Below are positions 7,149 through 48,743 of a DNA stretch of 64,000 nt, piece by piece. The DNA comes from Myxococcota bacterium (GTDB taxonomy: Bacteria > Myxococcota_A > SURF-8 > G963663525). The notes below the pieces were generated by a model, which had not been told where the DNA came from, made no database searches, and was given only the letters and a program-made list of their open reading frames with translations. The stretch's first letter is position 1, and each line of letters starts with the position of its first letter. The stretch covers positions 64,001 through 128,000 of the forward strand of contig CAXXVK010000067.1 in NCBI GenBank assembly GCA_963676915.2, given 5' to 3'. A program made the translations under genes and the position numbers.

Positions 7149-7235
7149 GTTTTACAAAAGCAACCGAGCTCGAAGGTTTAGAGGAAAGAAAACATGTCAC
7201 ATTTTAAGACCATACAGGAAAAAGGAGTACCGATC

Positions 7236-9587: not shown

Positions 9588-9609
9588 TCCCTTCCCGCCC
9601 CTTGCGTCC

Positions 9610-9642
9610 TGCCCCGGTTTTTCGACCGGGGCATTTTATTTT
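9610..9642 (+). terminator. Rho-independent terminator
   Basis: tgccccggtt-tttc-gaccggggca hairpin followed by ttttatttt. Confidence 0.75.
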
Positions 9643-9811
9643 GAAAGAAATGCATTTTGGAAAAAGATGGCAAAAGATCGAAAATACGGTTGAAAATCCT
9701 GCTTTTTCCGTTTATTCTAGATGTTATATAGTCTCCTGCCAAACAAGCGAATGGGAAAGGAGGGCTTTTCGCTTCGCGTTTTACTCACCCGAAATCGAAA
9801 GGAGCCTCATC

Positions 9812-10291
9812 ATGCGTTGTTCAAGTCGACGTGGGGTGCCGGTCGGGTTGCTATTCGTGTTGTTGATACTGACCACTGTTTTTTCTCTCGCCTACGCCGC
9901 CACACGGTACAAGATCACCGAGCCGGTTGAAAACGAACCCGTCGTCATCGACCAGGACACGGGCCTTCAATGGGCGCTTACCTTCGCCGCGAAAAAAAGT
10001 TGGCAAGAAGCTAACGCCTATTGCGAAAAGCTTGAGTACGGGGGCGCCGATGACTGGCGTTTGCCGACCAAGTACGATCTGATGGGTTTGATCGGCGAGC
10101 CGGGGAATTTTCCGGTAACCGAGTTTCCCAAAATGCCTGAAAAAGTTTTTTGGTCCGATACACCCAAAGAAGACAGTGAAAAGCACGCTTTTTACGTGGA
10201 TTTCTACAACGGGTTCATCGACTTCGACTACAAAGGCAATCGCTACTACGCTCGGTGTCTGCGTGGAGAAGAAGACCTCGATTTTGATTGA
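9812..10291 (+). CDS. Secreted DUF1566 (Lcl C-terminal) domain protein
   Basis: Signal peptide, then VIDQDTGLQW, SWQEANAYC, GGADDWRLPT, FWS and ARCLR. AAGGAG SD before ATG 9812. Confidence 0.85.
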   Translation: MRCSSRRGVPVGLLFVLLILTTVFSLAYAATRYKITEPVENEPVVIDQDTGLQWALTFAAKKSWQEANAYCEKLEYGGADDWRLPTKYDLMGLIGEPGNFPVTEFPKMPEKVFWSDTPKEDSEKHAFYVDFYNGFIDFDYKGNRYYARCLRGEEDLDFD

Positions 10292-25465: not shown

Positions 25466-26361
25466 CAGCCCCCCCTCGACAACAGAAAAGACAGCAACGT
25501 GCCTTCCACGGCGTCGTCCGTGCGTACGCGGCGATATTCGATGCCTCGGGAGCGGCAGTCCTTTGCCAACTGGTCGGCCCATCCAAGAAAGACTTTGAGG
25601 TATTCTTTGCGAATGGCTTCCGGGTCGGCCAGCAGGCGTTCGTCGCCCTCCATGTCCTCGAAAAGACTGAGATGTTCGAAACGGAAGTCCAACTCGTCCG
25701 GGTGCAGAACGTGAAACAGCACCACTTCGTTATGACGCGCTTTGAGTCGTGCAAGCATCTGTACGATGTCGGTTTCCGGGTCGAACAGGTCGCTGACCAC
25801 GATGATCAGGTTGCGTCCGTGCACGGTTTCCGCCAGAAAACGCAGTGGGGTTTTAAGGTCGGTTTCGCCTTCGGGAGAAAGTTCCACGAGGGTGTGTAGC
25901 AATTCCTGAAAATGACTGCTGGCCGAACGTGGAGGCATGTAGCGCAACACGCGGTCATTGAAGCCGAGCAGTGCCGGAGAATCCTGTTGGCGGATCAGCA
26001 GAAACGCCAGGGCGGCGGTCATTACTCTCGCATATTCGAGTTTGTTCGTGTCGTCGCTTCCATATCCCATGGAACCGGAGGCGTCGATCAGCAGATAACC
26101 GCGCAGATTGGTTTCATCTTCGAATTTTTTGACATAAAACCGGTCGAAACGTCCGTATGCCTTCCAGTCGATGTGCCGGGTGTCGTCGCCCTGGGAATAT
26201 TCCTTGTGTTCGGCGAATTCGATGGACGAGCCATGTTGGGGCGATTTGTGCAGTCCCGTCAACACGCCATCGACGACGCGGTTGGCCTTGAGTTGCAGAT
26301 TCTGCAAGCGGGCCAGCAACTCGGGTGTGAGCAGCAATTGATCCTGCACCGGGGCGGTCAT
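25465..26361 (-). CDS. DUF58 (VWA-like) protein
   Basis: GSSIEFAEHKEYSQGDDTRHIDWK, VKKFEDE, DASGSM and VSD. Confidence 0.92.
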   Translation of the reverse strand: MTAPVQDQLLLTPELLARLQNLQLKANRVVDGVLTGLHKSPQHGSSIEFAEHKEYSQGDDTRHIDWKAYGRFDRFYVKKFEDETNLRGYLLIDASGSMGYGSDDTNKLEYARVMTAALAFLLIRQQDSPALLGFNDRVLRYMPPRSASSHFQELLHTLVELSPEGETDLKTPLRFLAETVHGRNLIIVVSDLFDPETDIVQMLARLKARHNEVVLFHVLHPDELDFRFEHLSLFEDMEGDERLLADPEAIRKEYLKVFLGWADQLAKDCRSRGIEYRRVRTDDAVEGTLLSFLLSRGG

Positions 26362-26368
26362 GGAGAGA

Positions 26369-27391
<1,023 letters not shown>

Positions 27392-29530: not shown

Positions 29531-31363
29531 TTACTCCATGCCTTCTTCGGCCGCCTTGGAGGCTTCTTCGTACATGATGTCGGCGATCTTGTGGGAAGCG
29601 TTGGTCAACTCGATGAAACATTGTTTTGTTTCCTCGATGTCGCTTCCTTGAAGGGCTTTTTTCAGTGCGGCGATACCGATGTTGATGTCCTGCTTGTCGG
29701 ATTCGGGAATCAGGTCCGAATATTCCTGCAAAGCGCGCCCGGTGGTGTACAGCAGGGTGTCCGCTTCGTTGCGTAACTCGGCGACCGACCGCTTGTAGGC
29801 GTCGTCCTCGCGGGAGGCTTCAGCGCTCATGATGATGTCTTCGATGGCATCTTCGCTCAGACCGCTCGACGGTGTGACGCGCACTTCCTGGGCACGACCG
29901 GTGCCGAGGTCGCGGGCGGAAACGCTCAGGATGCCGTTGGCGTCGATCGCGAAGGTTACTTCGATTTGCGGTACGCCACGTGGTGCGGGCGGAATACCGA
30001 GCAACTCGAAGCGGGCCAGAGATTTGTTGTCCGAGGCCATTTCGCGTTCACCCTGAAGGACGTGCACCGAGACCGCCGGTTGGTTGTCCATCGCGGTCGA
30101 GAACACCTGGCTTCGTGTGACAGGAACCGTGGTGTTGCGTTCGATCAACTTGGTGAACACGCCACCCAACGTTTCGATACCGAGAGACAACGGGCAGACG
30201 TCGAGCAGCAACACGTCCTGCATGTCTCCGGAAAGCACGCTTCCCTGAATCGCGGCGCCGATGGCGACCACTTCGTCCGGGTTGACGCCCTTGAACGGTG
30301 CTTTACCGAAGAATTCCTCGACCGTGGCCTGGATCTTCGGGATGCGGGTCATACCGCCGACGAGGATTACGTTGCTGATATCGGTTTTCTGTACTCCGGC
30401 ATCTTGCAGCGCCATGCGGCAGGGTTCGATCGTCGCTTCGATCAGATCCCCCACCAACTCCTCGAATTTTCCCCGGGAAAGTTTGGCGTTGAAGTGCTTC
30501 GGACCGGTGGCGTCGGCGGAAATGAACGGCAGGTTGATGTCGGTTTCCAAGGTGCTGGACAACTCGATCTTGGCTTTTTCGGAGGCTTCTTTGAGTCTCT
30601 GAAGGGCCATGCGATCTTCCCGCAGGTCGATGTCGTGCTCTTCCTGGAACTGGTCGGCCATCCAATCGATGATGCGCTTGTCGAAGTCTTCGCCACCGAG
30701 GAAGGTATCGCCGTTGGTGCTGTTGACGTGGAACACGCCGTCACCGATTTCCAGGATGGAGATATCAAAGGTGCCGCCGCCCAAGTCGTAGACCGCGATC
30801 CGTTCGTTTTTCTCTTTATCCAGACCGTAGGCCAGGGCTGCCGCCGTAGGTTCGTTGATAATCCGCAGGACGTTCAACCCGGCGATTTTCCCGGCGTCTT
30901 TCGTCGCCTGGCGCTGGGAGTCGTCGAAGTATGCAGGCGTCGTGATCACGGCGTCTGTGACTTCCTCGCCAAGGTAATCTTCCGCCGTCTGCTTCATTTT
31001 TTGCAGAATCATGGCGGAAACCTCGGGCGGCGAAAGCTTTTTGCCTTGAACCTCGACCCAGGCGTCCTGATTGTCGGCGGGAACGATGCGGTACGATGAG
31101 GTTTCCAAAGCTTTTTGGATTTCATCGGAGCCGAATTTCCGGCCAATCAACCGTTTCACGGAATAAATGGTGCTTTCGGGATTCGTCACGGCTTGCCGTT
31201 TGGCAACCTGCCCCACCATGCGTTCCCCACTATCTTGGAAAGCCACGATGGATGGTGTCGTCCGCGCTCCTTCGGAGTTGGGAACGACAACCGCATCCGT
31301 GCCCTCGAAGATCGCCACACAGGAGTTGGTCGTACCGAGATCGATTCCAATTATCTTGGACAT
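29531..31363 (-). CDS. dnaK: Hsp70 chaperone DnaK
   Basis: [51 protein letters not shown] and GVPQIEVTF. Confidence 0.97.
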
Positions 31364-31525: not shown

Positions 31526-32635
31526 TCATTCATTCTTGTCTGCTTCTGACATGTTTTCCGTTGAGTTCTCCTGGCTTCCATGAATATCGCTATCGTCCGT
31601 TTCCCGATCTTCTTCAGTTTCGGGCGTTTTTTCCGGGGCGGTCCTTTTCGAAACGATGACCAACGAGGGCCGCAACAGCTTGCTGTCGATCATATATCCT
31701 TTTTGAAAGACTTCAAGCACGGTGTTGGATGGGACATCGTTGTTAACGTAGACATCCATCGCTTCGTGCACGTTCGGATCGAAGGGAAGGTTCAGGGCTT
31801 CGACCGGAACGACGTTTCGGTTTTTAAGAATTTCGTTGAACTGGTTGAGAATCAACCGAAGCCCTTGCACGATACTGTCTTTTTCACCTTCTTCTTTTTC
31901 AGCGTTGAATAAGGCTCGCTCGAGATTATCGAGTACCGGCAAAAACTGTTTGAGTAAATTGTTGTGGAATTCGTCGAGCGCACGTTTTTTGTCGGTTTCG
32001 ATGCGTCCACGATAAGAAAGATATTCTTTTCGAACGTTCGATAAGGCGTATTCGAGGTCTTCAATGCGTTTATTGGCCTCTTCCTCTTTCTTCTTTGCCT
32101 CCATCTCCTGTTTGCGTACGGCAGGGAGTTTGTGCCGCGGCATTCCGCGAAGCTGACTCGCCGGGATTTTGGAGGATTCAGGCAGCGAAGAAAGCTTTTC
32201 GTCCAGATCTTCGTCTTCGAACAGATCGTTGAGGCTGTCCAAAGCGTTTGGATCGACTTCCAACCCCGCGCTTTCCTTGTATTTTTTCGCCCGGTCGCCA
32301 CCAAGTGCATCTTCCATGATGCCGGCAAGAGAGATTTCAACTTCTTCATCGTCGTCTTCATCGATAGATTCGGATTCCTCGTCTTCGATTTCGATGAAGA
32401 ATTCTTCTTCCTCGTCAGCTTTGGCTTCTGATGCTTCTTGTTCCGGGTCGGTTTCTTCGGAAATATCCGTTTCTTGTTCTTCCGATTCGTCGGACTCCGA
32501 CGGAGGGGGGGCTTTTGGCTTTTTGGGGCGATTCACGCTTTCCAAGGCATCTTCGAACGCACTGGATAGATCTTCTCCCAGGTCGAATTCTTCTTCCAGA
32601 TCCCCCAGATCGATCACATTTTTGCGTGGCGTCAC
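31526..32635 (-). CDS. grpE: Nucleotide exchange factor GrpE with long acidic N-terminal extension
   Basis: LPVLDNLERAL, FDPNVHEAM and QKGY...LLRPSLVIVSK. GTG 32635 is preceded by GGAGG. Directly upstream of dnaK. Confidence 0.9.
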   Translation of the reverse strand: MTPRKNVIDLGDLEEEFDLGEDLSSAFEDALESVNRPKKPKAPPPSESDESEEQETDISEETDPEQEASEAKADEEEEFFIEIEDEESESIDEDDDEEVEISLAGIMEDALGGDRAKKYKESAGLEVDPNALDSLNDLFEDEDLDEKLSSLPESSKIPASQLRGMPRHKLPAVRKQEMEAKKKEEEANKRIEDLEYALSNVRKEYLSYRGRIETDKKRALDEFHNNLLKQFLPVLDNLERALFNAEKEEGEKDSIVQGLRLILNQFNEILKNRNVVPVEALNLPFDPNVHEAMDVYVNNDVPSNTVLEVFQKGYMIDSKLLRPSLVIVSKRTAPEKTPETEEDRETDDSDIHGSQENSTENMSEADKNE

Positions 32636-32787
32636 GTTGGACCTCCCAGAACGTGCCAAGCGCGAATAAAAACTATCATTTCAGGTAGGACGATCCATCG
32701 TCAAAAAATTGACGAAAAAAGAACATTTCGTTCCATAAAAAATCGCAATACCATCGTTATGAAAAGTACGTCCAATCAGTGTAATAA

Positions 32788-34261: not shown

Positions 34262-37200
34262 TTACGAATTTGTCGGTGGATTGACGGGCAACGGAGTCAA
34301 CTCTTCATCGCCGAATAATTCCAGGTATCCGGGTTGTGCGCCGAAACATCGGTCGAACAGTCTGCATCCACGGCAACGCTCGGTCTTTTTTCCCAAGTCC
34401 AGAGAGCCTTTTTCGAGACGAAACGTCGAGGTTGGTGTGGCGACCAATGCGTTTTCTTCGAGGGGGTGCCAGACGGCGGCTTCTTCATCCGGGAGAAAAC
34501 AGTAGGGAATGTAGTAGGATCGGACGACGAAATCGTCTCCGAGGGTTCGTGCTGCCTGCAAGGCTTTTTGCACGGCCAACGCCGCCTCCGGGTAGCGAGG
34601 CACCAATTCCTCGGCACGAGATGCGGCCCGGCCTTCGGCAGCGATCATCCAGAGATTGAAGAATTGTACGCCCATGGAACCGAAAAGGGAAACGAGCCGT
34701 CCCAGGCCCGGCAACGTCGGGGTACAGAGAAGCACGTCGAGCTCCAAACGCAAATCCGGTTGAAAAGCGTTGGCTAACGTCACCGAACGTTTGGCTTTTG
34801 CGAAACTCCCCGGACTGTTTGTCAGTGCATCGTGAATCTCGGCCGTATCGCCTCGAACCGAAATGTTGAGTTTGTTCAAACCGTTATCCACGAGTTCGTG
34901 AAGATATTCCCTGTCGGCGGTTCGTTGTCCGTTGGTTTGGACTCCGATGGTTTCGAATCCCAAAGAGGCGGCGTAGTCGATCAGTTGGGGGAGATCGTCG
35001 CGTTCGGTGGGTTCCCCGCCCCCTAGTCGCAGGTCGCTGGGATCGTAGAGCATCGCGCGGCGGATTTTTTCTTTTGCCGCGTCGGTGGTCAAAACTTCCT
35101 GTTGCAGTTCGTCCGGGACCGCACAGAAGACGCAGCCCATCGAACAGGCATAGCCTGGAATCAGGTCCAACAGTTTGACTTTCCAGGAGTTTTCCCCGTT
35201 TTCTTGTTCTTCGAGGGGAGAATAATCCCAAAATCCCTGGCATAGGCTGTCGTAGCGGCAGTTGTCGCAAAGACCGTTTTTGAATCGCCGTTCGGCGAGG
35301 TAATCGGCCAGATTGACGTGCTCGCCCGTTACGAAACGCATGGTGCGCACCGTTTTATAAAAATCCTGGAGAGCGTAGGACTCGTAGCCCTCCAATAGAC
35401 AAAACGGTAGGTTGACAACGTGAATCTTAAGGGATTCCGGGGAGTTGTCGATAGTTTTACGAACCTGTTGCGCCGTTTCCCAGGGATCGGCGGCAAACGC
35501 GGCGTCGATGTGACCGAATGGCGTATAGTATTGGATATTGAACGTATCGGCTCCAAGACGTGCCGCGAGACGACCCATGGCGGGAATCTGCTCTACATTG
35601 TCGGATACCACCGTCATGTTCACGCCCACTCGCTCGAAGCGTTTGCGGACGCGGACGATCCCGGCTACCGTTTGTTTCCATGCACCTGGAACCCGTACCA
35701 GCGAATCGTGGATTTCGGCTTCGGCTCCATGGAGCGAAACGAGGATGTCGAGCGGGTATCCTGCCAGTCGATCGAGGAATTCCGGCTCGTTGAATCGTCT
35801 CCCGTTGCTGGTGATGGTTACACGGTTGTACCCGGTTTCAAGGGCTGCATCCAGCAATTCGAAAAGGTGGGGATAAAGTGTCGGTTCCCCACCGTCGAGA
35901 TCCAGGTTGCGTACTCCGCGTTCGTAGGCTTGTTCCAGGGAGGCGACGAGTTCCGACAGCGGAGCGTCTTTGCGTTCCCTATCGGCGACGGAACAGAAAC
36001 GGCAGTTGTTGTTGCAGCGATAACTTACGTTCAGGATTAGTTTTTCCTGGTCGTTTCCACGGGTACGGAGCCGGAAGTTGTCGCGGGTTTCGGCGAGTGT
36101 ATCCACGTCCAAAGGGCCATAAGCCGTGACAGGTCGTTCCTGCATGGCCTGCATGAGGTCGTATTCGGGCTCGAAATCGAACGCCTCGGGTGGCAGGGCG
36201 AATTCCACTTCGGGTTCAATGTTGTAGATTGAAGCGGCCTGAGCCAGCACCCGGAGCCAGACGTTGATTTCCGGTTGTCCGTCCGGTTCGTGTCCGATAT
36301 CGGAAACGAGCACTTTTTCACCTTTTTGTGCGCACATGCGCAGCAAACCGGCTTCGAACCACTGAGGAAAGCGGTCGTCGGTCAAGAAAGAATTCCAGCC
36401 TTCGGGAAAACCGGGTTTCAAAGCAACTCTGAACGGTTCCGCAATGTTGGAAACCGGTGGCAAAACATCATCGGTTACGAGTTCGAACGGCAATGGATGA
36501 GCGAAGCGTACGTGCAGTTCCGCTTCGTTGACCAGTTCCATGAAGGCACGCAAGCGGTTATGGTCTTCAGTGCCGAAACGGTCCATCACCCAAAGTGTGT
36601 CGATGCCTAGTTTACGGTATTCACCCAAACGGAACCAGGCGCGGTCGTAGTCGAAATCCGTCGAAGAAGGGCAGACCAGACAGGGGAAAGCCCGTTCGTC
36701 TTTTTGACCGCTCAACCAGCCTTCATGACGAGCTTGAGAGAATAATTCACAATACGTTTCAACAAGTTCCGGGTCCAGGCGAGGTGGTTTTTCTTCGGAA
36801 GCTATGGAACCGCCGACCAGTTGCGCTTTCGAACCTATGCGCGATACCAGGCCGGGAGGTGCCAGACCTTCGCAGACCTGCAACAGTCCTTTCGCGGTGG
36901 CGTCCATCAACAGGCTTTCGACTTCGGGCAGACGGTCGAGCAACAAGAGCGGATCGAAACTTGTCGGATAGGGACCGGGACAGGATGGATCGAAAATGTG
37001 GATGCGAGTTCCCGCGTACGAAATGCGATGAATCAGTGTTTCGAGGCGTTCCAGCAGTCCCGGTTTCAGTCGATCAACCTTGCTGAAATGGATCAACGCG
37101 ATTTCGGCTCCCGAATCGATCACCTTTGCCGCTACCGTTTCAGGGTCCGCACCGAGCAAAAAGCCGTCTTCGGTTTCACGTACCAGCGGACCCAGGCGAA

Positions 37201-37351
37201 GGGCATCGATCAATACGGCTTCCGTTTCATGGGCGAGATGCGCCACGGCGTCGAGACAAGGAAAGACATCGAGGATGCCGTTTTGGATCATCCCCCGATG
37301 AACGGAGGCGGTAGGATGTACGATCGCGATTCGGGTCATCTGAGTTTCCAT
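34262..37351 (-). CDS. Multidomain radical SAM protein (degenerate B12-type module + two radical SAM domains)
   Basis: CNNNCRFC + DGGEPT + TSNGRR + LPFC + CDNCRYDSLCQG. Second domain CSMGCVFC + GGGEPT + QTNGQR + IPYC + CRGCRLFDRCFG. The N-terminal ~430 aa lack a CxxxCxxC motif. Confidence 0.88.
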   Translation of the reverse strand: METQMTRIAIVHPTASVHRGMIQNGILDVFPCLDAVAHLAHETEAVLIDALRLGPLVRETEDGFLLGADPETVAAKVIDSGAEIALIHFSKVDRLKPGLLERLETLIHRISYAGTRIHIFDPSCPGPYPTSFDPLLLLDRLPEVESLLMDATAKGLLQVCEGLAPPGLVSRIGSKAQLVGGSIASEEKPPRLDPELVETYCELFSQARHEGWLSGQKDERAFPCLVCPSSTDFDYDRAWFRLGEYRKLGIDTLWVMDRFGTEDHNRLRAFMELVNEAELHVRFAHPLPFELVTDDVLPPVSNIAEPFRVALKPGFPEGWNSFLTDDRFPQWFEAGLLRMCAQKGEKVLVSDIGHEPDGQPEINVWLRVLAQAASIYNIEPEVEFALPPEAFDFEPEYDLMQAMQERPVTAYGPLDVDTLAETRDNFRLRTRGNDQEKLILNVSYRCNNNCRFCSVADRERKDAPLSELVASLEQAYERGVRNLDLDGGEPTLYPHLFELLDAALETGYNRVTITSNGRRFNEPEFLDRLAGYPLDILVSLHGAEAEIHDSLVRVPGAWKQTVAGIVRVRKRFERVGVNMTVVSDNVEQIPAMGRLAARLGADTFNIQYYTPFGHIDAAFAADPWETAQQVRKTIDNSPESLKIHVVNLPFCLLEGYESYALQDFYKTVRTMRFVTGEHVNLADYLAERRFKNGLCDNCRYDSLCQGFWDYSPLEEQENGENSWKVKLLDLIPGYACSMGCVFCAVPDELQQEVLTTDAAKEKIRRAMLYDPSDLRLGGGEPTERDDLPQLIDYAASLGFETIGVQTNGQRTADREYLHELVDNGLNKLNISVRGDTAEIHDALTNSPGSFAKAKRSVTLANAFQPDLRLELDVLLCTPTLPGLGRLVSLFGSMGVQFFNLWMIAAEGRAASRAEELVPRYPEAALAVQKALQAARTLGDDFVVRSYYIPYCFLPDEEAAVWHPLEENALVATPTSTFRLEKGSLDLGKKTERCRGCRLFDRCFGAQPGYLELFGDEELTPLPVNPPTNS

Positions 37352-42705: not shown

Positions 42706-43589
42706 GCGCGAAAAAAGCTACCGGCAAAACCAAACGCGGTCTGGGACGGGGCATGTCAGCCCTGCTACCTTCTGCCTCTCCTGCCGTGAAAAGCGATAAA
42801 ACACTGATCACCGTAGGTGTCGAAGAAATCTCTCCCATGCCGGGGCAGCCTCGCTACCATTTCGATCCCGAGGCCATCGAAGATCTCGCCCGTTCGATCA
42901 AGCGTCACGGTATTTTACAGCCGCTTTTGGTGCGAAAAACGGACGACGGATATCAACTCGTAGCCGGTGAGCGTCGCTGGCGTGCAGCCCAGCAGGCTGG
43001 ATTGTCCAACGTTCCGGTAATCGTCAAACAGGTCGATGAAGACGAAGCGTTTCAGTGGGCGCTCGTCGAGAATATCCACCGTAAAGACCTCAATGCCATG
43101 GAAATCGCTCGGGCTTTCCAACGACTGGTCAAAGAGCACAAACTCAATCAGCAGGATATCGCCGAGCAGGTCGAGAAAGACCGTGCCTCGGTGGCCAATT
43201 ACCTGCGCTTGCTGAAATTACCCAAGGAAATCCAAGACTTGGTGGAAGAAGGTCGTATTCCGTTCGGTCATGCTCGGGCGTTGGCCTCGCTCAACGGCGA
43301 AGAGATCAAGCAGATCAATTTCAAAGCACTGCTCGAAGGCAGACTTACCGTCCGGCAGATCGAGCACCGCGTGGCGGAAATCAAAAAGAGTCGGGAAAAC
43401 CCCGATACTCCCCCAAAAAAAGCTCCCAAAGAGAGCGTACAGTTGCGCCACTTACGTGAATCGGTGGAACGCACGGTCGGGCTGAAAGTATCGCTCAAGG
43501 ACAAAAAGGGAAAAGGCACGCTGAGTTTTCACTACACGAACCTGGACGAACTGGACAACATTCTCGAACGTCTGGGCGTCAAGCAGTAG
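42702..43589 (+). CDS. parB: Chromosome partitioning protein ParB/Spo0J
   Basis: RGLGRGM, QPR, GILQPL, AGERRWRAA, ALVENIHRKDLN and RASVANYLRLL. Confidence 0.95.
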   Translation: MSAKKATGKTKRGLGRGMSALLPSASPAVKSDKTLITVGVEEISPMPGQPRYHFDPEAIEDLARSIKRHGILQPLLVRKTDDGYQLVAGERRWRAAQQAGLSNVPVIVKQVDEDEAFQWALVENIHRKDLNAMEIARAFQRLVKEHKLNQQDIAEQVEKDRASVANYLRLLKLPKEIQDLVEEGRIPFGHARALASLNGEEIKQINFKALLEGRLTVRQIEHRVAEIKKSRENPDTPPKKAPKESVQLRHLRESVERTVGLKVSLKDKKGKGTLSFHYTNLDELDNILERLGVKQ

Positions 43590-43818
43590 GGTTCCGAAGA
43601 AGCTGCAAATCCTCGTGTTCCTTGTGTACTGCTTGAAAATACTAGCTTTTTCATTCCTTTATCGATCAAGTCATTTGAGAATCCAATCGATTCAAAGTTT
43701 GTTGGAATTCACTCCTCGACCTTGAATTTCTCGGCGAAATGTGTAAGGTAGTCACCGTTTATGCGGGTTGTTCTTCCTGTATGGAAAATTCGTGGCGTGT
43801 GACGAAGGGATTGTGACG

Positions 43819-45690
43819 ATGAATCCGCGAATCAAGGCATCTCTCGTTTCCATCGTAGCCGATATCGTTTTGATTGCGACCAAAGGGACGCTGGCGTTTT
43901 TATCCGGCAGCGCTTCACTGTTGGCCGATGCCTACCATTCCCTTTCCGACCTGTTCGTCTCGTTCGCCGTGCTCACGGGCGCCGCGTCACGTACCTGGGT
44001 CGAAAAAAAGGCGAAAGAAAAGGAAAATTCCTTACAAAACGAATCGGAGCAGGAGCCTGGCGAAGGCGAGCGCGTTTCCGACGAAGTGGCGGAAAATCAA
44101 GAGATTGCGGAGGAAAAAAATCCGGCTTCCACGTCCGAACATTCTTCTGCACCCGGGTATTGGATCGAAGCCGGGATCGCTTATCTGGTATCCCTGATTA
44201 TCCTCTATCTTCCCTACGAAATCATATCGACGGTTTCCACTCAGAAAAATCACGACCTGAAATATACCTGGGTTGCAGTCGTCGGCGTGATTGTCTGTAT
44301 TATGATCGCCTATTTCATCTCCCGCTATAAAATGCTTGTGGGGCGAGAGTTGGATTCGCCTGCCCTGGTGGCCGATGGCTACCACAGCCGCATGGATATG
44401 TTTACGTCCATCGCCGTGCTTGCTTCATTGGTGGGGCAGATGATCGGTATCCGTCTGGACGCGCTGATGGCGGTGATCATTGCCGTGATGATCGGCATTG
44501 TTGGCTTGGAACTGTTCATAACCTCGATTGTCGGGTTTATCCGCAAAGCGGGACTCAAGCGCCTGTCCCTTCTCACATGGCTTCAACAGCGTATCGATGC
44601 AGGGTTGGCTTTCGTGTCGAAAAAAGCCCTGGGTCGAACCGTTGAGATGTCGGACCTTCGCCTGATCGAACGTCTGACCTCCGGAAGTCTGATCAATCGC
44701 CGACGTATGGCGCTGTTGTTCGTTCTCATTCTTATCGGTTACTTTTTGGGTGGTTTGACGATGATCCGGGTCGGGGAAACCGGGGTCAAGCTGCGTTTCG
44801 GAAAGATTGTTCAGGACGATATTCCACCCGGTCTGACGTACCGCCTGCCATGGCCGATCGAATCCATAGAACGTGTGCGAAAACAAGACGTTAAAAGGGT
44901 TGAGTTCGGTTTCAGAACGGCGGAAGATATTGTTGGAAGTATTTCCCCGACCTTGTGGGAAGCTACCCATATTGCCAAGGGATATAAAAAGGTAAAGGCC
45001 GAATCCGTCTCTCTGACGGGGGACGAGAACATCGTGGATATCAGTTTGGTGATGCACTATCGCCCCGTTGATCCGGTCAAAGCCGTGTTCCGAGTTCGCT
45101 CCGTTGACGAAGTGCTTCGCGGCCTGCTTGAGTCCGCCACTCGCAATGTGATTTCCATCGAAAAGGCCGACAAGCTGTTGGTCGAGGATCGCAAAGGGAC
45201 GTTGGCGACCATTCGTCAAGCGGTAGAAAAGGATGTCGCTCGTCTGGATCTGGGCGTCGAAATTCTCGATGTGTTCTGTCACGATCTTCATCCCCCGACG
45301 GAGGTTGTCGGCGCGTATCGGGACGTATTTTCCGCTCGTGAGGAAAAAGTCCGTTTGTTGAACAAAGCCGAAACCCATCGCAACGAATCCTTGCCCAAGG
45401 CGCGCTCCGACAGTTTGCAAAACCTTTACGAAGCCGAGGCCGAATCGTTTGAAAAACGGGAACGGGCGACGGGAGATTCGGAGAAATTCCGTGTAACTTC
45501 AGAGGCTTATCGACGCTATCCCGATTTGACGGCGTACCGTCTGTTTATCGAAATGGCGGAAAACAGCCTCACCGGGAAAAAGAAAATCATCGCCGATCCC
45601 AAGGTCAATCGAGGCGGATATCGTATGTGGCTGTTTTCACCGGATAAAGGCGGACCTTTCATGGGATCTTCGAAAGGAGAGCGACTGTGA
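43819..45690 (+). CDS. Fusion of a cation diffusion facilitator TM domain and an HflK-type SPFH domain
   Basis: N-terminal SGSASLLADAYHSLSD and SPALVADGYHSRMD (CDF TM2/TM5 H-x3-D sites). After an extra TM helix: GVKLRFGK, PGLTYRLPWPIE, LTGDENIV, HPPTEV..AYRDV and LPKARS. Confidence 0.88.
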   Translation: MNPRIKASLVSIVADIVLIATKGTLAFLSGSASLLADAYHSLSDLFVSFAVLTGAASRTWVEKKAKEKENSLQNESEQEPGEGERVSDEVAENQEIAEEKNPASTSEHSSAPGYWIEAGIAYLVSLIILYLPYEIISTVSTQKNHDLKYTWVAVVGVIVCIMIAYFISRYKMLVGRELDSPALVADGYHSRMDMFTSIAVLASLVGQMIGIRLDALMAVIIAVMIGIVGLELFITSIVGFIRKAGLKRLSLLTWLQQRIDAGLAFVSKKALGRTVEMSDLRLIERLTSGSLINRRRMALLFVLILIGYFLGGLTMIRVGETGVKLRFGKIVQDDIPPGLTYRLPWPIESIERVRKQDVKRVEFGFRTAEDIVGSISPTLWEATHIAKGYKKVKAESVSLTGDENIVDISLVMHYRPVDPVKAVFRVRSVDEVLRGLLESATRNVISIEKADKLLVEDRKGTLATIRQAVEKDVARLDLGVEILDVFCHDLHPPTEVVGAYRDVFSAREEKVRLLNKAETHRNESLPKARSDSLQNLYEAEAESFEKRERATGDSEKFRVTSEAYRRYPDLTAYRLFIEMAENSLTGKKKIIADPKVNRGGYRMWLFSPDKGGPFMGSSKGERL

Positions 45691-46571
45691 AAAAAGTGCT
45701 GGCGCTTTTCGGAATTCTCGTTATTTCGGGTTATCTCATCAATAGTTCCCTGGTGGTGCTGGATGAGACGGAACTCGGTATCGTCACGTTTTTCAACAAG
45801 CCGACGAGGGTGGTCAAGGAAGCGGGGTTGATCGTCAAATGGCCCGATCCGGTGCAGACGGTGATCCGGCTGGATCGCCGCCTCCAGGCATTGGATTCCA
45901 ATCTGGGCGAATACCTGACGCGGGACAAAAAGAATCTCGTGGCCAGCAGTTTCGTTCTTTGGAGGGTGGACGATCCTCAGCGCTTCATTCAGAGTGTTCG
46001 TTCCCGGACGAACGCCGAAAAGCGGCTGGCCGATCTCGTAGGGTCGGAACTGGGTGTCGCTATCGGTGAACATCCGTTGCATGATTTTCTCACAACCGAG
46101 GAAAACGGCAGTAAAATCGGTGAGATATCCAATCAGGTGCTGGATCGGACCCGTGGGCCGGCGAAAACGGATTTTGGGGTCGAGTTGGTGGATGTACAGC
46201 TTCGACGGATCGGTTTTCCCAGTCAGAACCTTCGTTCGGTATATGACCGGATGCGTACCGAACGTGAACGGATCGCCAAAAAATACCGTGCCGAAGGCGA
46301 GGAGGAAGCCTCCAAAATCCGGTCGCAAACCGATAAAGAAGTTCGCGAATTGTTGGCCAATTCCTACCGCGATGCCCAAATTACGAGAGGTAAGGGGGAG
46401 GCGGAAGCGATTCGGATTTATGCCGAGGCATTTTCGAAAGATCCGGGATTTTACAAGTTGACCCGAACGTTGGAGGCGTATCGGAAGATGATCGACGAGG
46501 ACACGACGTTGATTCTCTCTGCCGATTCTCCCCTTTTCCGTTACCTGGAAACCCCGCCGGACGGACGTTGA
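45687..46571 (+). CDS. hflC: HflC-type SPFH protein
   Basis: LTRDKKNL, WRVDDP, FGVELVDV, VYDRMRTERERIA..YRAEG and DPGFYKLTRTLEAY. The start overlaps the upstream stop (GTGA). Confidence 0.9.
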   Translation: MKKVLALFGILVISGYLINSSLVVLDETELGIVTFFNKPTRVVKEAGLIVKWPDPVQTVIRLDRRLQALDSNLGEYLTRDKKNLVASSFVLWRVDDPQRFIQSVRSRTNAEKRLADLVGSELGVAIGEHPLHDFLTTEENGSKIGEISNQVLDRTRGPAKTDFGVELVDVQLRRIGFPSQNLRSVYDRMRTERERIAKKYRAEGEEEASKIRSQTDKEVRELLANSYRDAQITRGKGEAEAIRIYAEAFSKDPGFYKLTRTLEAYRKMIDEDTTLILSADSPLFRYLETPPDGR

Positions 46572-46573
46572 TC

Positions 46574-47512
46574 ATGCCGAACGAACCGATAGATAACGTT
46601 GCCCGGCACACGTTCCGGCACGTAGGAAAAATCTGTTGCGGAGCGCTTTTTCTGGTGCTGCTGGTCTATCTGGCCAGTGGAATCTACTCGATCAAGCCCG
46701 AGCAGACGGGCGTGGTCAAGCGTTTCGGTGTGATTGTCGCCGATGACGTGCCGCCGGGAATTCACTACCACTGGCCGTGGCCGATCGAAATGGTGGCGCG
46801 TCCGAACACCAAGGAAATCAAGGCGATAGAGCTGAAGTTCGACAAAACCTCGGCGTTGGGTCTGGATGCTTCCGGTGGTGCGCTGTTGACGGGGGACGAA
46901 AACCTGGTGCTTTTAACGCTGTTCGTGCAGTACACCATCGACAGTCCCCAAAAATACCTGACGGTCACGTCCCGACCGTCGGAGATGCTCGAACGTATGA
47001 TTGAAGCGGCAAGTGTACGGCATTTTTCCCAAATTTCCGTGGACGATATCCTCACCACGGGAAGGAACGACATCCAAAGGAATCTCAAAAAAGAGGTGCA
47101 GGGGATGTCGGACACATTGGGGTTGGGACTGCGTATCCTGTCGATTCAGATTCAGCGCGTCGAGCCGCCCAAGACCGTCGCCCATGCTTTCAAAGATGTG
47201 GCGTCGGCGAGAGAAGACATGCACAAAGTGTTGCAGCGAGCCAATGGAGAACGCAACCGGCGACTCCCCGAAGCTCGGGCGAAAGCCGAACGGATGTTGC
47301 GGGAGGCTGAAGCCTATGCCAATGAAGCGGTGCAAATGGCCGAGGGCGATGCAGAGAAATTTCTCTCGACCTGGAAAGCCTATCGCAAAGCGAAAACCGT
47401 CACCGCTCACCGGATCTATCTCGAAACCATTGAAACCATCATGGCGAACGTGAACAAACAGATCGTCAATCCCGAGGCCGAGAAAAACGTTCGTTCGATG
47501 TCGCCGAGATGA
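46574..47512 (+). CDS. hflK: HflK-type SPFH protein
   Basis: GVVKRFG, PGIHYHWPWPIE, LLTGDENLV, PPKTVAHAFKDVASARED, LPEARA and RIYLET. Confidence 0.9.
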   Translation: MPNEPIDNVARHTFRHVGKICCGALFLVLLVYLASGIYSIKPEQTGVVKRFGVIVADDVPPGIHYHWPWPIEMVARPNTKEIKAIELKFDKTSALGLDASGGALLTGDENLVLLTLFVQYTIDSPQKYLTVTSRPSEMLERMIEAASVRHFSQISVDDILTTGRNDIQRNLKKEVQGMSDTLGLGLRILSIQIQRVEPPKTVAHAFKDVASAREDMHKVLQRANGERNRRLPEARAKAERMLREAEAYANEAVQMAEGDAEKFLSTWKAYRKAKTVTAHRIYLETIETIMANVNKQIVNPEAEKNVRSMSPR

Positions 47513-47544
47513 TGATTTAGCGAAATCTCAAAGAAATAGAGAGG

Positions 47545-48207
47545 TTACGGACCTTCGTTGTCGGAGCCATGCCATCGACAGGGAATCAGGAACGTAAAAC
47601 GTAACGGAATGCCTTTCCAGCGGGCCGGTTCGAATGTGCTTTGACCGATCATGTCCCGGCACAGTTCGTCGAGGCTTTCGTCCACACCTTTCATGACTTT
47701 CAGTTGTGCAACGCTGCCGTCTTCGTCCAGATGAACGCGAACGATGGTTTCCTGCCCCTGTAAATGGAGCGGTACCTTGATCTTTTGATTCTGCATTCCC
47801 GAACGAATGAGCCGTGGTTGTTTGAACTGAGGAGCGTGTAGCCACCACGCTTTGGCCTGGGGAACGACGATTCGTTGGTTTTCGCCGGGTTCCGTTGGAC
47901 CTACCGGCTTGAGATCCCCCAAGGAATTTTTACGAATCTCAAGAATATCGGTGACTTGCACGCGACTCTCCGAGTCGTCGGCTTTCATTAAACGATAATA
48001 GGGTAGGGCACTGGGGGGTGGGGCTTTGGACGAAGTCCCGACGTACTCCAACTCGTTTTCACTGTTTTTTGAGGAACCGGTGGAAGCGCATGAAAAACAG
48101 GCGAAAAGGAGAACGAAGAACGAAATTCCCCCCAATGTTTGAAGCCACCGAGAGATAACGACAGAAAAACTCCCGTAAGGAGCCGTCCCGATGTGACGAA
48201 ACCGCAT
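47545..48207 (-). CDS. Putative lipoprotein with TonB C-terminal-like domain
   Basis: Lipobox-like CFSC. C-terminal VRVHLDEDGSV..LKV.KG...LD......STFEPA...G.P. Confidence 0.65.
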   Translation of the reverse strand: MRFRHIGTAPYGSFSVVISRWLQTLGGISFFVLLFACFSCASTGSSKNSENELEYVGTSSKAPPPSALPYYRLMKADDSESRVQVTDILEIRKNSLGDLKPVGPTEPGENQRIVVPQAKAWWLHAPQFKQPRLIRSGMQNQKIKVPLHLQGQETIVRVHLDEDGSVAQLKVMKGVDESLDELCRDMIGQSTFEPARWKGIPLRFTFLIPCRWHGSDNEGP

Positions 48208-48215
48208 CGTCTTGC

Positions 48216-48743
48216 TTACTCCCCTTCGAATTCCACCAGGAAACGGTAGGGGTAGCCTTTGTCTTCGAGCGTTTTTCTGCCTCCGACCTCGGGGAGATCG
48301 ATTACGAACAGCATCGCCGCGACGCTCGCTCCCATTTTTTCTACCAATCGCGCCGTGGCCAGCGTCGTGCCGCCGGTGGCCAACAGGTCATCGACGATCA
48401 GGATTTTTTCGTCGGGGAGAATGGAATCCCGGTGAATTTCCAGCGCGGCGGTGCCGTATTCGAGGGAATATTCCTCGGAAATCGTTTCCGCCGGAAGTTT
48501 TCCCGGTTTTCTGGCGATCACGAAAGGTTTTCCTGTTTCCTTTGCGAGAACCGAACCGAAAATGAACCCTCTGGATTCGATACCGAGCACACGGTCGAAG
48601 TCGAAATCCTGGGTTTTTTCAACCAAACGGCGGCAGGCTTCGGCAAAGCCTTCGGCGTCGTTCACCAAGGTGGTGATGTCGCGAAATTGGATGCCTGGTT
48701 TCGGCCAGTCGGGAATCGTGCGAATCAATGATTTCAGGTTCAT
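48216..48743 (-). CDS. apt: Adenine phosphoribosyltransferase
   Basis: PDWPKPGIQFRDIT, ESRGFIFG, RKPGKLP, YSLEYG and VDDLLATGGT. Confidence 0.97.
   Translation of the reverse strand: MNLKSLIRTIPDWPKPGIQFRDITTLVNDAEGFAEACRRLVEKTQDFDFDRVLGIESRGFIFGSVLAKETGKPFVIARKPGKLPAETISEEYSLEYGTAALEIHRDSILPDEKILIVDDLLATGGTTLATARLVEKMGASVAAMLFVIDLPEVGGRKTLEDKGYPYRFLVEFEGE

What the first reader, a model, noticed from the sequence alone, without database searches (positions are those of the whole stretch)
43819..47512. CDF metal-transporter domain fused to HflK in a CDF-HflK / HflC / HflK operon: a candidate SPFH-caged metal transport or sensing system
Seen: one ORF carries a six-helix CDF domain with both intramembrane metal-site motifs (HSLSD in TM2, HSRMD in TM5). 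I see no usual cytoplasmic CDF C-terminal domain. Instead there is a linker, another TM helix and a full HflK-type SPFH plus coiled coil. An acidic ~45-aa insert occupies the TM2-TM3 loop. HflC (overlapping start/stop) and a second HflK follow, and there is no ftsH in the window. Established: HflK/HflC form a large membrane cage that normally encloses FtsH, and HD-HD site A is typical of Zn-selective CDFs. From memory, HflK/C paralogues also occur beside a heavy-metal P-type ATPase in Pseudomonas aeruginosa. Inference: a three-subunit SPFH cage with a covalently attached metal transporter, either forming a metal-handling microdomain or coupling metal status to membrane proteolysis.
Basis: partly seen in the sequence, partly recalled or inferred. 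Interest (0 to 1): 0.78.

Follow-up and report, generated by a model that had tools for sequence, protein, structure and literature searches.

The report
Metal transporter fused to HflK cage
One bacterial gene joins a metal-export pump to a subunit of the HflK/HflC membrane scaffold, and the same three-gene set recurs across many bacterial phyla, pointing to an undescribed way of housing metal transporters in scaffolded membrane patches.

Summary
Window 43819-45690 encodes one 623-aa chain: a CDF transporter membrane domain with no ZT_dimer tail, a basic cytoplasmic linker, a seventh helix, and a full HflK-type SPFH/coiled-coil part. HflC (GTGA overlap) and a second HflK follow.

It is not a one-off. 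The fused ORF is intact in 80 of 80 related genome loci from 13 named phyla. The order fused-HflK/HflC/HflK is kept in 69 of 69 loci whose contig reaches far enough. The transport-site tetrad H-D-H-D is kept in 133 of 139 fused proteins.

HflK also occurs fused to P1B heavy-metal ATPases and ArsP-type permeases. A parvulin foldase gene is added in 46 of 80 loci. Zn/Cd-type ATPases, ArsR/SmtB regulators and FeoB recur nearby.

Best reading: a heteromeric SPFH scaffold that carries its own metal exporter. No paper I could search describes this fusion.

The parts
43590..43818 (+). 229-nt intergenic region between parB and the fused gene; presumed promoter/operator region
   Evidence: No sigma-70-like site here, no Rfam match at E<=1, only one 14-nt palindrome at 43657-43670. 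AAGGGA lies 9-15 nt before the ATG.
43819..45690 (+). Fused gene: CDF membrane domain + linker + TM7 + HflK-type SPFH/coiled coil (623 aa, P0001)
   Evidence: Full-length relatives at 25-98% identity.
43819..44604 (+). CDF (Cation_efflux) membrane domain, residues 1-262; site-A codons are H40 (43936-43938), D44 (43948-43950), H189 (44383-44385) and D193 (44395-44397)
   Evidence: Pfam PF01545 in two stretches. Aligned to YiiP/FieF TM2 and TM5. Tetrad HDHD in 133 of 139. Hydropathy finds 5 of the 6 helices at threshold 1.6; the polar TM2 is missed.
43987..44154 (+). Acidic low-complexity insert in the TM2-TM3 (cytoplasmic) loop, residues 57-112
   Evidence: 15 D/E, 1 His and 0 Cys in 56 aa. An insert of 35 aa or more occurs in 32 of 139 fused proteins.
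44539..44706 (+). Basic linker between CDF TM6 and the HflK helix, residues 241-296; takes the place of the usual CDF C-terminal domain
   Evidence: The loop 235-297 has 13 K/R against 4 D/E. Across the family the median is 55 aa, with 9.6 K/R against 4.2 D/E. No ZT_dimer.
44707..44772 (+). Seventh transmembrane helix (the HflK anchor), residues 297-318
   Evidence: Hydropathy peak 298-316, score 2.45. Aligns with the TM of E. coli HflK.
44761..45603 (+). HflK-type SPFH domain and coiled coil, residues 315-595
   Evidence: TIGR01933 positions 3-250 of 261. E. coli HflK chain 7vhp_E, E 4.8e-29, residues 389-600 against 140-348.
45687..46571 (+). HflC (294 aa, P0002), start overlaps the fused gene's stop (GTGA)
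   Evidence: TIGR01932 scores 195.2 bits against 134.4. Overlap and RBS. Next gene in all 73 loci that reach past the fused gene.
46568..47512 (+). Second, unfused HflK paralogue (314 aa, P0003; 'HflK2')
   Evidence: TIGR01933 scores 203 bits against 159.4. Junction. Third gene in 69 of 69 loci that reach that far. These proteins form their own clade, SH-aLRT 95.

Best explanation
The three genes are one operon. It builds an HflK/HflC-type SPFH assembly on the outer face of the cytoplasmic membrane. One of its two HflK-type subunits carries a complete CDF metal/proton-antiporter membrane domain where E. coli HflK has a disordered cytoplasmic N-terminal tail. The CDF part is a working exporter of a divalent transition metal; Zn2+ or Fe2+ is most likely but undecided. 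Its usual cytoplasmic dimerisation and regulatory domain has been replaced by a roughly 55-aa basic tether to the scaffold. The scaffold therefore sets where the transporter sits, how many copies lie together and in what lipid patch. I call this a scaffolded metal-efflux platform. The plain HflK paralogue probably shares the HflK positions and so dilutes the number of transporter domains per assembly. What is shown: the domain make-up, the loss of the C-terminal domain, conservation of the transport-site residues, conservation of the fusion and the gene order, shared history of the parts, and recurrent metal-handling neighbours. What is inferred: that the three proteins co-assemble into a ring or cage, that the CDF part transports, which metal it handles, whether the transporter lies inside or outside the ring, and what the benefit is.
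For: Architecture. The topology fits. The CDF ends in the cytoplasm. The linker is basic (13 K/R against 4 D/E). TM7 then puts the SPFH part outside, as in E. coli HflK, whose first 78 residues are not modelled (PMC12048511 passages). Selection on the transporter: HDHD in 133 of 139 fused proteins. Thirty of 38 short-form proteins have HH/HxH in the cytoplasmic linker, against 0 of 29 long-form ones. Selection on the module: fused ORF in 80 of 80 loci and the gene triple in 69 of 69 that reach far enough. The same subclades appear in the SPFH tree, among the HflK2 proteins and in the CDF-domain tree. The fused CDF domains are split from 17 free CDFs by one branch (SH-aLRT 89). The nearest complete free CDFs are at most 29% identical over most of the domain, and all carry ZT_dimer. 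Metal context within 6 kb: P1B ATPases in 17 loci, of which 10 of 10 non-redundant ones pass the Cd/Zn-family cut-off. ArsR/SmtB regulators in 12 loci, 5 of 5 confirmed. FeoB directly upstream in 6 loci. DUF1007+NicO directly downstream in L001. On a conjugative Aquibium plasmid the module sits with a two-component system, a PPIase, a heavy-metal ATPase and an Nramp. Independent fusions point the same way: 17 full-length P1B-ATPase-HflK and 2 ArsP_1-HflK proteins among 37 scanned. Precedents: stomatin domes enclose AQP1 and UT-B (PMC12407830 section 8). The hmtA/SPFH cluster is zinc-regulated in P. aeruginosa.
Against: No structure or complex prediction could be run, so co-assembly rests on homology and synteny alone. 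In the window itself the neighbours are not metal genes: parA/parB upstream and a convergent TonB_C gene downstream. No metal riboswitch or recognisable operator was found. Long-form contexts vary. The protein scores below the curated CDF superfamily cut-off (67 against 82.35 bits) and lacks the domain that normally dimerises CDFs, so activity is not assured. Six of 139 relatives have lost a site-A residue. The 80 loci are not independent, because several are near-identical (for example L031, L032, L036 and L037). The scan pattern was itself the TM5 motif, so relatives with a degenerate TM5 could not be found through the genome scan.
Confidence: 0.5

Rival explanations
1. FtsH-coupled reading. 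The assembly is a true HflKC cage around FtsH, and the CDF domain ties metal status to membrane proteolysis. It could do so by tuning zinc near the zinc-dependent protease, or by acting as a metal-gated regulator of substrate access.
For: All three proteins reach the curated hflK/hflC equivalog cut-offs, and 26 of 26 relatives match hflK. The closest solved relatives are the E. coli HflK/HflC chains of the FtsH complex. The Arg two residues from the position cited as contacting FtsH is kept in the fused protein, but the numbering does not match exactly, so this is weak.
Against: An FtsH-like ORF lies within the flanks of only 1 of 80 loci and is absent from the window. This is weak, since E. 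coli hflKC is not next to ftsH either (one search shows hflX-hflK-hflC). Up to three copies of the module occur in one assembly (L004/L007/L009; also L052/L067 and L033/L049). It also rides a conjugative plasmid. Both look like an accessory metal function rather than a housekeeping protease modulator. A CDF exports away from the cytoplasmic FtsH active site.
Confidence: 0.2
2. Loading-chamber reading. The transporter pumps metal into the space under the SPFH dome on the outer face of the membrane. Exported proteins are folded and metal-loaded there, or the metal is held away from the rest of the envelope. In the short-form half of the family this happens with a membrane-anchored parvulin foldase.
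For: A parvulin PPIase gene with an N-terminal membrane anchor is present in 46 of 80 loci. It lies mostly directly upstream on the same strand, with gaps of -30 to +184 nt. It is also in the Aquibium plasmid module. Zinc-dependent M23 peptidases and other wall hydrolases lie near 5-9 Bacillota loci. SPFH domes do enclose a membrane patch and the space over it (PMC12407830 section 8).
Against: The window and the other 34 loci have no such PPIase. Nothing shows on which side of the ring the transporter sits. No client protein is identified. The PPIase may only help the dome itself to fold.
Confidence: 0.12
3. The CDF part no longer transports. It serves as a polytopic membrane anchor or a metal-binding sensor for an SPFH scaffold with another job.
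For: It has lost the C-terminal domain and scores below the curated CDF superfamily cut-off. No stand-alone copy of this CDF subfamily was found: the three closer short hits lie on contigs of 604-1361 nt.
Against: The four transport-site residues are kept in 133 of 139 proteins down to 23% identity. Other conserved membrane positions are also kept: S41, S48, E117, D186 and G187 at 90% or more. An anchor would not need these. A sensor would still need the site, so sensing is not excluded.
Confidence: 0.1
4. The fusion is an assembly or gene-calling artefact (a missed stop or frameshift between a CDF gene and hflK).
For: None found.
Against: The reading frame is uninterrupted in the window. The same holds in 80 of 80 loci from independent assemblies, including isolate genomes (Anaerospora hongkongensis DSM 15969, Desulfosporosinus metallidurans, Blautia, Teredinibacter) and a finished plasmid.
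Confidence: 0.01

Closest known systems
E. coli HflK/HflC (with FtsH), PDB 7VHP/7WI3/9CZ1
   Same: Same family by curated models. Closest solved chains (HflK E 4.8e-29). Same order: an N-in anchor helix, then SPFH, coiled coil and C-terminal tail. An HflC gene follows the HflK gene.
   Different: The HflK N-terminal tail is replaced by a six-helix CDF domain. There are three genes (K-C-K) instead of two. There is no hfq-hflX context (for E. coli). A link to FtsH is untested.
P. aeruginosa hmtA (PA2435) with PA2437-PA2439, probably the PaFlo5-7 operon of strain PA14
   Same: A heavy-metal transporter beside three SPFH genes of the HflK/HflC kind, co-induced on zinc depletion (PMC4542158 Table 2; PMC11761036). 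Three SPFH genes sit in one operon with a patchy, transfer-like distribution (PMC13086221 passages).
   Different: There the transporter is a P-type ATPase and is a separate gene. The fused P1B-ATPase-HflK proteins found here look like the joined form, but I could not compare sequences. The match of PA14 tags to PA2437-2439 is my inference, since the paper gives no PAO1 tags. Deleting paFlo5-7 gave only slight phenotypes, and metals are not mentioned in the passages I saw.
CDF transporters YiiP/FieF (solved) and MamB/MamM
   Same: Cation_efflux fold by Pfam. Site A aligns with YiiP TM2/TM5. The best curated match is MamB, 74.9 bits, and 26 of 26 relatives match it.
   Different: No ZT_dimer cytoplasmic domain. 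All curated CDF equivalog and superfamily cut-offs are missed. The site is H-D-H-D, not YiiP's D-D-H-D. That H-D-H-D marks zinc CDFs is recalled; the DxxxD pairs of Mn CDFs are stated in PMC4995437 (passage).
Stomatin domes enclosing AQP1 and UT-B; stomatin-regulated channels
   Same: An SPFH ring fences a membrane patch that holds a transporter or channel (PMC12407830 abstract and section 8; PMC13724742 seen in a listing only).
   Different: The client there is non-covalent and eukaryotic, and the dome faces the cytoplasm. Here the client is part of the scaffold chain and the dome faces outward.
PacL1-CtpC 'metal efflux platforms' of mycobacteria
   Same: A small membrane scaffold encoded with a metal exporter clusters and stabilises it in membrane foci (PMC9374683 abstract and passages).
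   Different: PacL is DUF1490, not SPFH, and the foci are flotillin-independent. This is an analogy of function only, not homology.

Membership tests
Cation diffusion facilitator (CDF, Pfam Cation_efflux PF01545) | Membrane domain matches the family profile above the curated score | tested here: met
   74.9 bits against a gathering score of 26.6, in two stretches.
Cation diffusion facilitator | Four-residue transport site A on TM2 and TM5 ((H/D)x3D + Hx3D) | tested here: met
   H40, D44, H189 and D193. They align to the YiiP positions. HDHD in 133 of 139 relatives.
Cation diffusion facilitator | Cytoplasmic C-terminal domain (ZT_dimer PF16916) | tested here: not met
   No hit at E<=1. The precomputed lists show only PF01145+PF01545 for the 75 fused hits. 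Free relatives carry it.
Cation diffusion facilitator | Reaches the NCBIfam superfamily cut-off (TIGR01297), or any equivalog (MamB, MntE, FieF, ZitB) | tested here: not met
   67 bits against 82.35; MamB 74.9 against 350. The profile spans the missing C-terminal domain.
Cation diffusion facilitator | Homodimer; metal/proton antiport | not testable with these tools
HflK (TIGR01933 equivalog) | Score at or above the curated cut-off | tested here: met
   Fused protein 160.3 against 159.4 (barely). Second HflK 203. 26 of 26 relatives match at E<=1e-5.
HflK | N-in anchor helix followed by an extracytoplasmic SPFH domain, coiled coil and C-terminal tail | tested here: met
   Aligned along E. coli HflK from the TM onward. 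Basic linker before TM7. This is sequence-level only; no model.
HflK | Adjacent, co-transcribed HflC partner | tested here: met
   HflC scores 195.2 against 134.4. 4-nt overlap. Kept in every locus that reaches it.
HflK | Forms a 12+12 cage with HflC and binds or modulates FtsH | not testable with these tools
ftsH is not linked, but neither is it in E. coli.
Stomatin/NfeD operons | NfeD partner gene beside the SPFH gene | tested here: not met
   No NfeD among the window ORFs or among the recurrent neighbour clusters that were annotated.
Anti-phage defence systems (PADLOC) | Match to any defence-system protein model | tested here: not met
   0 families for the three proteins at E<=1e-3.

The most novel reading that the evidence does not exclude
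Bacterial SPFH domes of the HflK/HflC kind form a general housing for metal transporters, not only for FtsH. Three unrelated transporter families (CDF, P1B-ATPase, ArsP-type permease) have been welded to HflK. The K-C-K module would then make an outward-facing chamber into which the tethered transporter pumps metal. In about half of the family a dedicated parvulin foldase would work there on exported proteins. The zinc-regulated hmtA/SPFH cluster of P. aeruginosa would be the unfused version of the same machine.
Probability: 0.12. Interest if true: 0.9.

Novelty: new variant of a known kind. Interest (0 to 1): 0.72.

Why it matters
What bacterial SPFH scaffolds do, and for which clients, is a long-standing open question. 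Beyond FtsH few clients are known, and deleting all nine SPFH genes of P. aeruginosa gave only slight phenotypes (PMC13086221 passages). A gene fusion is the strongest sequence-level evidence that two proteins work together. Here the client is written into the scaffold chain, in a large family that spans 13 named phyla and includes Blautia and other Lachnospiraceae (Bacillota) genomes. The same logic recurs with two other transporter families.

This gives a defined and tractable system for asking several questions. What does an SPFH assembly do to a transporter? How does a CDF work without its C-terminal domain? Why is the P. aeruginosa hmtA cluster zinc-regulated? It also flags an annotation gap: RefSeq names the fused gene only 'FtsH protease activity modulator HflK', which hides the transporter.

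Tried and rejected
No model exists, so nothing is claimed from one.
2. Names and cluster members of P0001 and three relatives: the database was switched off.
3. Atlas look-up of P0001: not held. The stored homologue P0041 only confirmed clusters of 111, 50 and 70 members that carry both domains.
4. Regulation. No sigma-70-like promoter lies upstream of the operon, and the counts are not above shuffles. There is no Rfam match at E<=1 in 43000-48300. Eight related loci have no metal riboswitch, only a cobalamin riboswitch in L041. One short palindrome was found, and no plausible small ORF upstream.
5. An SPFH1 loop insert (LWE..H..GY.K) at first looked specific to transporter-fused HflKs. The alignment with E. 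coli and other HflKs shows a generally variable loop, so I dropped it.
6. The FtsH contact residue: Arg191 as cited does not fall on an Arg in my numbering of the E. coli protein (an Arg lies two residues on). It is conserved everywhere and therefore uninformative.
7. Single origin of all transporter-fused HflKs: the SPFH tree leaves CDF long-form, P1B and ArsP fusions as an unresolved basal grade, so this is neither shown nor excluded.
8. Larger fusions: no protein of 1092-3115 aa was found (weak evidence).
9. Defence-system role: no PADLOC match.
10. The acidic loop as a metal-binding loop: 1 His and 0 Cys in 56 aa, and it is clade-specific. It is more likely a disordered spacer.
11. Plasmid search: no plasmid match covers 80% or more of the query. 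One (Aquibium) covers 79% and proved to be a short-form module.

Full report
1. OBSERVATION

Pfam finds Cation_efflux (E 9.3e-21) and Band_7 (E 7.5e-20) in the first chain. It finds no ZT_dimer even at E<=1.

NCBIfam results:
- First chain: hflK equivalog at 160.3 bits, just over the 159.4 cut-off.
- Second chain: hflC at 195.2 against 134.4.
- Third chain: hflK at 203 against 159.4.

HSLSD (residues 40-44) and HSRMD (189-193) are read directly. They align with the TM2 and TM5 site positions of Shewanella YiiP/FieF.

The junctions are a GTGA overlap preceded by AAAGGAG, and a TTGA overlap (or an ATG three bases after the stop). The ATG at 43819 is the likely start, not the TTG at 43768, because relatives begin at the matching MN.RIKAS.

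No ftsH is in the window. It is absent from 41 ORFs scanned with Pfam and from a Walker-A/HExGH motif scan of all ORFs. The window is ordinary chromosome: parA-parB directly upstream, with greA, recG, dnaK and grpE nearby.

2. ANATOMY

A hydropathy scan finds helices at 9-27, 113-131, 150-168, 195-213, 216-234 and 298-316. The polar TM2 (about 33-56, carrying D37, H40 and D44) falls below threshold but lies within the Pfam match. That gives six CDF helices plus a seventh.

The TM2-TM3 loop holds a 56-aa acidic insert: 15 D/E, 1 His, 0 Cys.

After TM6 comes a basic stretch, residues 235-297, with 13 K/R against 4 D/E. It sits where other CDFs have their C-terminal domain. By the positive-inside rule it is cytoplasmic. 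TM7 therefore carries the SPFH part to the outer face of the membrane, which is the topology of E. coli HflK.

In E. coli HflK the first 78 residues are not in the model, which covers residues 79-355 (PMC12048511, passages). In this protein the CDF domain and tether stand in place of that tail (alignment). From the TM onward the chain aligns along E. coli HflK to the C-terminal tail.

3. A LARGE, CONSERVED FAMILY

- Word-indexed search: 75 of the 120 listed hits carry both parts, at 26-98% identity.
- Exhaustive search of 50%-identity representatives: 7698 hits at E<=1e-3, and 109 of the 150 best carry both parts.
- Atlas: clusters of 111, 50 and 70 members with both Pfam families on all members (queried with the homologue P0041).
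- Genome scan: 172 pattern matches, 146 confirmed relatives, 80 loci kept.

In those 80 loci the fused ORF is intact in 80 of 80. HflC and a second HflK follow in 69. The other 11 loci all end 0-94 nt after the last gene seen, so the triple is kept in 69 of 69 that can show it.

The record titles name 13 phyla. Bacillota has 36 loci, Myxococcota 6, Thermodesulfobacteriota 5 and Eisenbacteria 4. Nine more have 1-2 each, and 19 loci are unnamed.

Two caveats apply. Several loci are near-identical (for example L031, L032, L036 and L037). The scan pattern was the TM5 motif itself, so the genome loci cannot speak to loss of that motif. The two protein searches did not depend on that motif pattern. 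In an alignment of 139 fused proteins drawn from them, the site tetrad is H-D-H-D in 133.

Two forms exist.
- Long form, about 557-640 aa. This is the window's form. Its closest genome relatives are two Myxococcota MAG chromosomes at 61% and 57% identity.
- Short form, about 502-522 aa. In the short form the cytoplasmic tether is His-rich: HH or HxH in 30 of 38 non-redundant proteins, against 0 of 29 long-form ones. In that count one short-form linker failed to parse, and L057 was typed short by score although it looks long.

4. CONTEXT

A profile built from the upstream gene finds a membrane-anchored parvulin PPIase in 46 of 80 loci. In 41 loci it is directly upstream on the same strand, with gaps of -30 to +184 nt. 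It resembles PpiD, PrsA and SurA only below their cut-offs. It is present in 35 of 36 Bacillota loci. It is absent from the window and from the other 34 loci.

Within 6 kb of the module, clustering of neighbours gives:
- histidine kinases in 30 loci and response regulators in 27;
- P1B ATPases in 17 loci. All 10 non-redundant ones pass the Cd/Zn-family cut-off, and 9 of 10 miss the Cu-family cut-off;
- ArsR/SmtB regulators in 12 loci, 5 of 5 confirmed;
- FeoB directly upstream in 6 long-form loci;
- gyrB-gyrA upstream in the Eisenbacteria group.

In L001, the closest genome relative, DUF1007 and NicO genes follow the module after 4 nt.

A conjugative Aquibium oceanicum plasmid carries, in order, a response regulator, a kinase, the fused gene, HflC, HflK, a PPIase and a heavy-metal ATPase. 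An Nramp lies nearby. RefSeq names the fused gene only 'FtsH protease activity modulator HflK'.

Three assemblies hold two or three copies of the module. An FtsH-like ORF lies in the flanks of 1 of 80 loci.

The window's own neighbours are not metal genes.

5. OTHER TRANSPORTERS FUSED TO HflK

I scanned 37 further HflK-like proteins:
- 17 are full-length E1-E2/HAD P-type ATPases followed by Band_7. Of the three I read in full (P0078, P0193, P0254), all carry a CPC motif. Two scanned with NCBIfam pass the heavy-metal P1B cut-offs and the hflK equivalog. None shows an HMA domain.
- 7 are truncated pieces of the same ATPase-Band_7 kind.
- 2 show Band_7 only. One of them, read, begins with P-type-ATPase-like C-terminal sequence.
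- 2 are ArsP_1 permease + Band_7.
- 9 are further CDF + Band_7.

All join the transporter's cytoplasmic C-terminus to a linker, a helix and the SPFH part. There hmtA (PA2435) lies with PA2437-PA2439, all raised in a znuA mutant and in zinc-depleted proteomes (PMC4542158 passages and Table 2; PMC11761036 passages).

A 2026 study of P. aeruginosa SPFH proteins describes three SPFH genes in one operon (PaFlo5-7) with a patchy distribution and slight deletion phenotypes. In the passages I saw it does not connect them to metals (PMC13086221). That these are PA2437-2439 is my inference.

6. HISTORY

SPFH-domain tree: 81 rows, quick IQ-TREE, rooted on 7 HflC rows. HflC rows beyond the first eight were dropped, one more lacked an envelope, and two over-long rows were trimmed. 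The second HflKs form one clade (SH-aLRT 95). The short-form fused HflKs form another (98). The long-form, P1B-fused and ArsP-fused HflKs form an unresolved basal grade.

CDF-domain tree: 33 fused domains, 16 of the 77 free CDFs, and one neighbour CDF. One branch (support 89, not decisive) separates all fused domains from the free ones.

The same small groups recur in the fused SPFH part, the CDF part and the second HflK. So the parts have travelled together since an old fusion. The nearest complete free CDFs are at most 29% identical over most of the domain, and all have ZT_dimer. The three closer short hits sit on contigs of 604-1361 nt.

7. HOW IT MOST LIKELY WORKS

Shown:
- a CDF membrane domain under selection at its transport site;
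- its cytoplasmic domain replaced by a tether to an HflK subunit;
- an obligatory HflC and a second HflK;
- recurrent metal-handling neighbours;
- parallel fusions of HflK to other metal(loid) transporters.

Established for relatives: HflK and HflC alternate in a large ring whose anchor helices fence a membrane patch (PDB 7VHP and related entries). SPFH domes can enclose transporters (stomatin with AQP1 and UT-B, PMC12407830 section 8).

Inferred: the three proteins build such an assembly. The two HflK types share the K positions. The CDF domains are thereby clustered, perhaps paired, in a defined patch. The scaffold takes over the dimerising and regulating role of the lost domain.

I put this at 0.5. 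The rivals are:
- a true FtsH cage coupled to metal status (0.2);
- an outward-facing loading or containment chamber served by the PPIase (0.12);
- a non-transporting anchor or sensor (0.1);
- an artefact (0.01).

The metal is open. H-D-H-D is, from memory, the zinc-CDF pattern, and Mn CDFs use D-x3-D pairs (PMC4995437 passage). The His-rich tethers and Zn/Cd-type neighbours of the short form fit zinc or cadmium. The MamB-like best match and the FeoB neighbours of part of the long form leave iron possible.

8. NOVELTY

Five full-text searches found no paper that describes a CDF-HflK or transporter-SPFH fusion. The terms were: HflK + cation diffusion facilitator; SPFH + HflK + metal + fused; cation diffusion facilitator + SPFH; HflK + HflC + P-type ATPase + zinc; and P1B/SPFH/stomatin/HflK/Band 7. 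The library lacks most subscription journals, and I read no supplements, so a mention elsewhere cannot be excluded. The domain pair is visible in public domain tables, but annotation hides it.

I rate it a new variant of a known kind. The kind is an SPFH scaffold with a membrane client. The variant has the client covalently built in, a K-C-K gene set, and a CDF without its C-terminal domain.

9. NOT DONE

I ran no fold, fold search or complex prediction and no cluster-member names. I made no whole-genome check for a separate hflKC or ftsH, no context for the P1B and ArsP fusions, and no sequence comparison with PA2437-2439.

Noticed in passing
L061:5294-7915 (+) and 45 other loci; L081:9921-11612: A 520-870 aa membrane-anchored parvulin PPIase gene is tightly linked to the short-form module (46 of 80 loci). 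It has a long extracytoplasmic region with no Pfam match before the Rotamase_2 domain. In L061 it also has a Cys/His-rich stretch that is not conserved across the group.
   Followed up: partly
P0078, P0193, P0206, P0217 and others; P0080, P0084: HflK-type SPFH domains are also fused to the C-terminus of P1B heavy-metal ATPases (about 1000 aa, no HMA domain) and of ArsP_1 permeases (about 700 aa). Their gene neighbourhoods could not be fetched.
   Followed up: partly
L004, L007, L009 (one Desulfobacteraceae MAG); L052/L067; L033/L049: Two or three copies of the whole module occur in single assemblies. This suggests paralogues with different metals or regulation, though MAG binning could inflate the count.
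   Followed up: no
L011, L017, L020: Near-identical short-form modules are filed under Desulfobacula, an Actinomycetota MAG and a Nitrospiraceae MAG. The cause is either transfer across phyla or mis-binned contigs.
   Followed up: no
L033, L038, L039, L049, L056, L058, L060, L064, L066 and others: Cell-wall hydrolase genes recur near Bacillota copies of the module: M23 peptidase + G5 in these nine loci; NlpC/P60 + SH3 and VanW + G5 in others.
   Followed up: no
L016:4616-6028: An ordinary CDF with ZT_dimer, fused to a dinitrogenase FeMo-cofactor-binding-type domain, sits two genes upstream of the module. FeoB lies between them.
   Followed up: no
window 7194-9587 (+): A 797-aa protein with cysteine-rich DUF7107 and Dickkopf_N-like repeats, an unusual match for a bacterium. 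It is followed by an Lcl_C-domain protein at 9551-10291.
   Followed up: no
window 34262-37351 (-): A 1029-aa protein with two radical-SAM stretches and no other recognised domain.
   Followed up: no
window 31526-32659 (-): GrpE is 377 aa. The GrpE domain covers only residues 183-338, so there is a long unexplained N-terminal extension. It lies next to dnaK (29531-31363).
   Followed up: no
window 23381-27391 (-): A BatA/VWA protein, a DUF58/VWA protein and a MoxR-type AAA ATPase in a row (a Bat-like aerotolerance cluster).
   Followed up: no
window 43657-43670: A 14-nt palindrome (CTTTATCGATCAAG) about 150 nt upstream of the fused gene's start. It is a possible operator, with no known match.
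   Followed up: no
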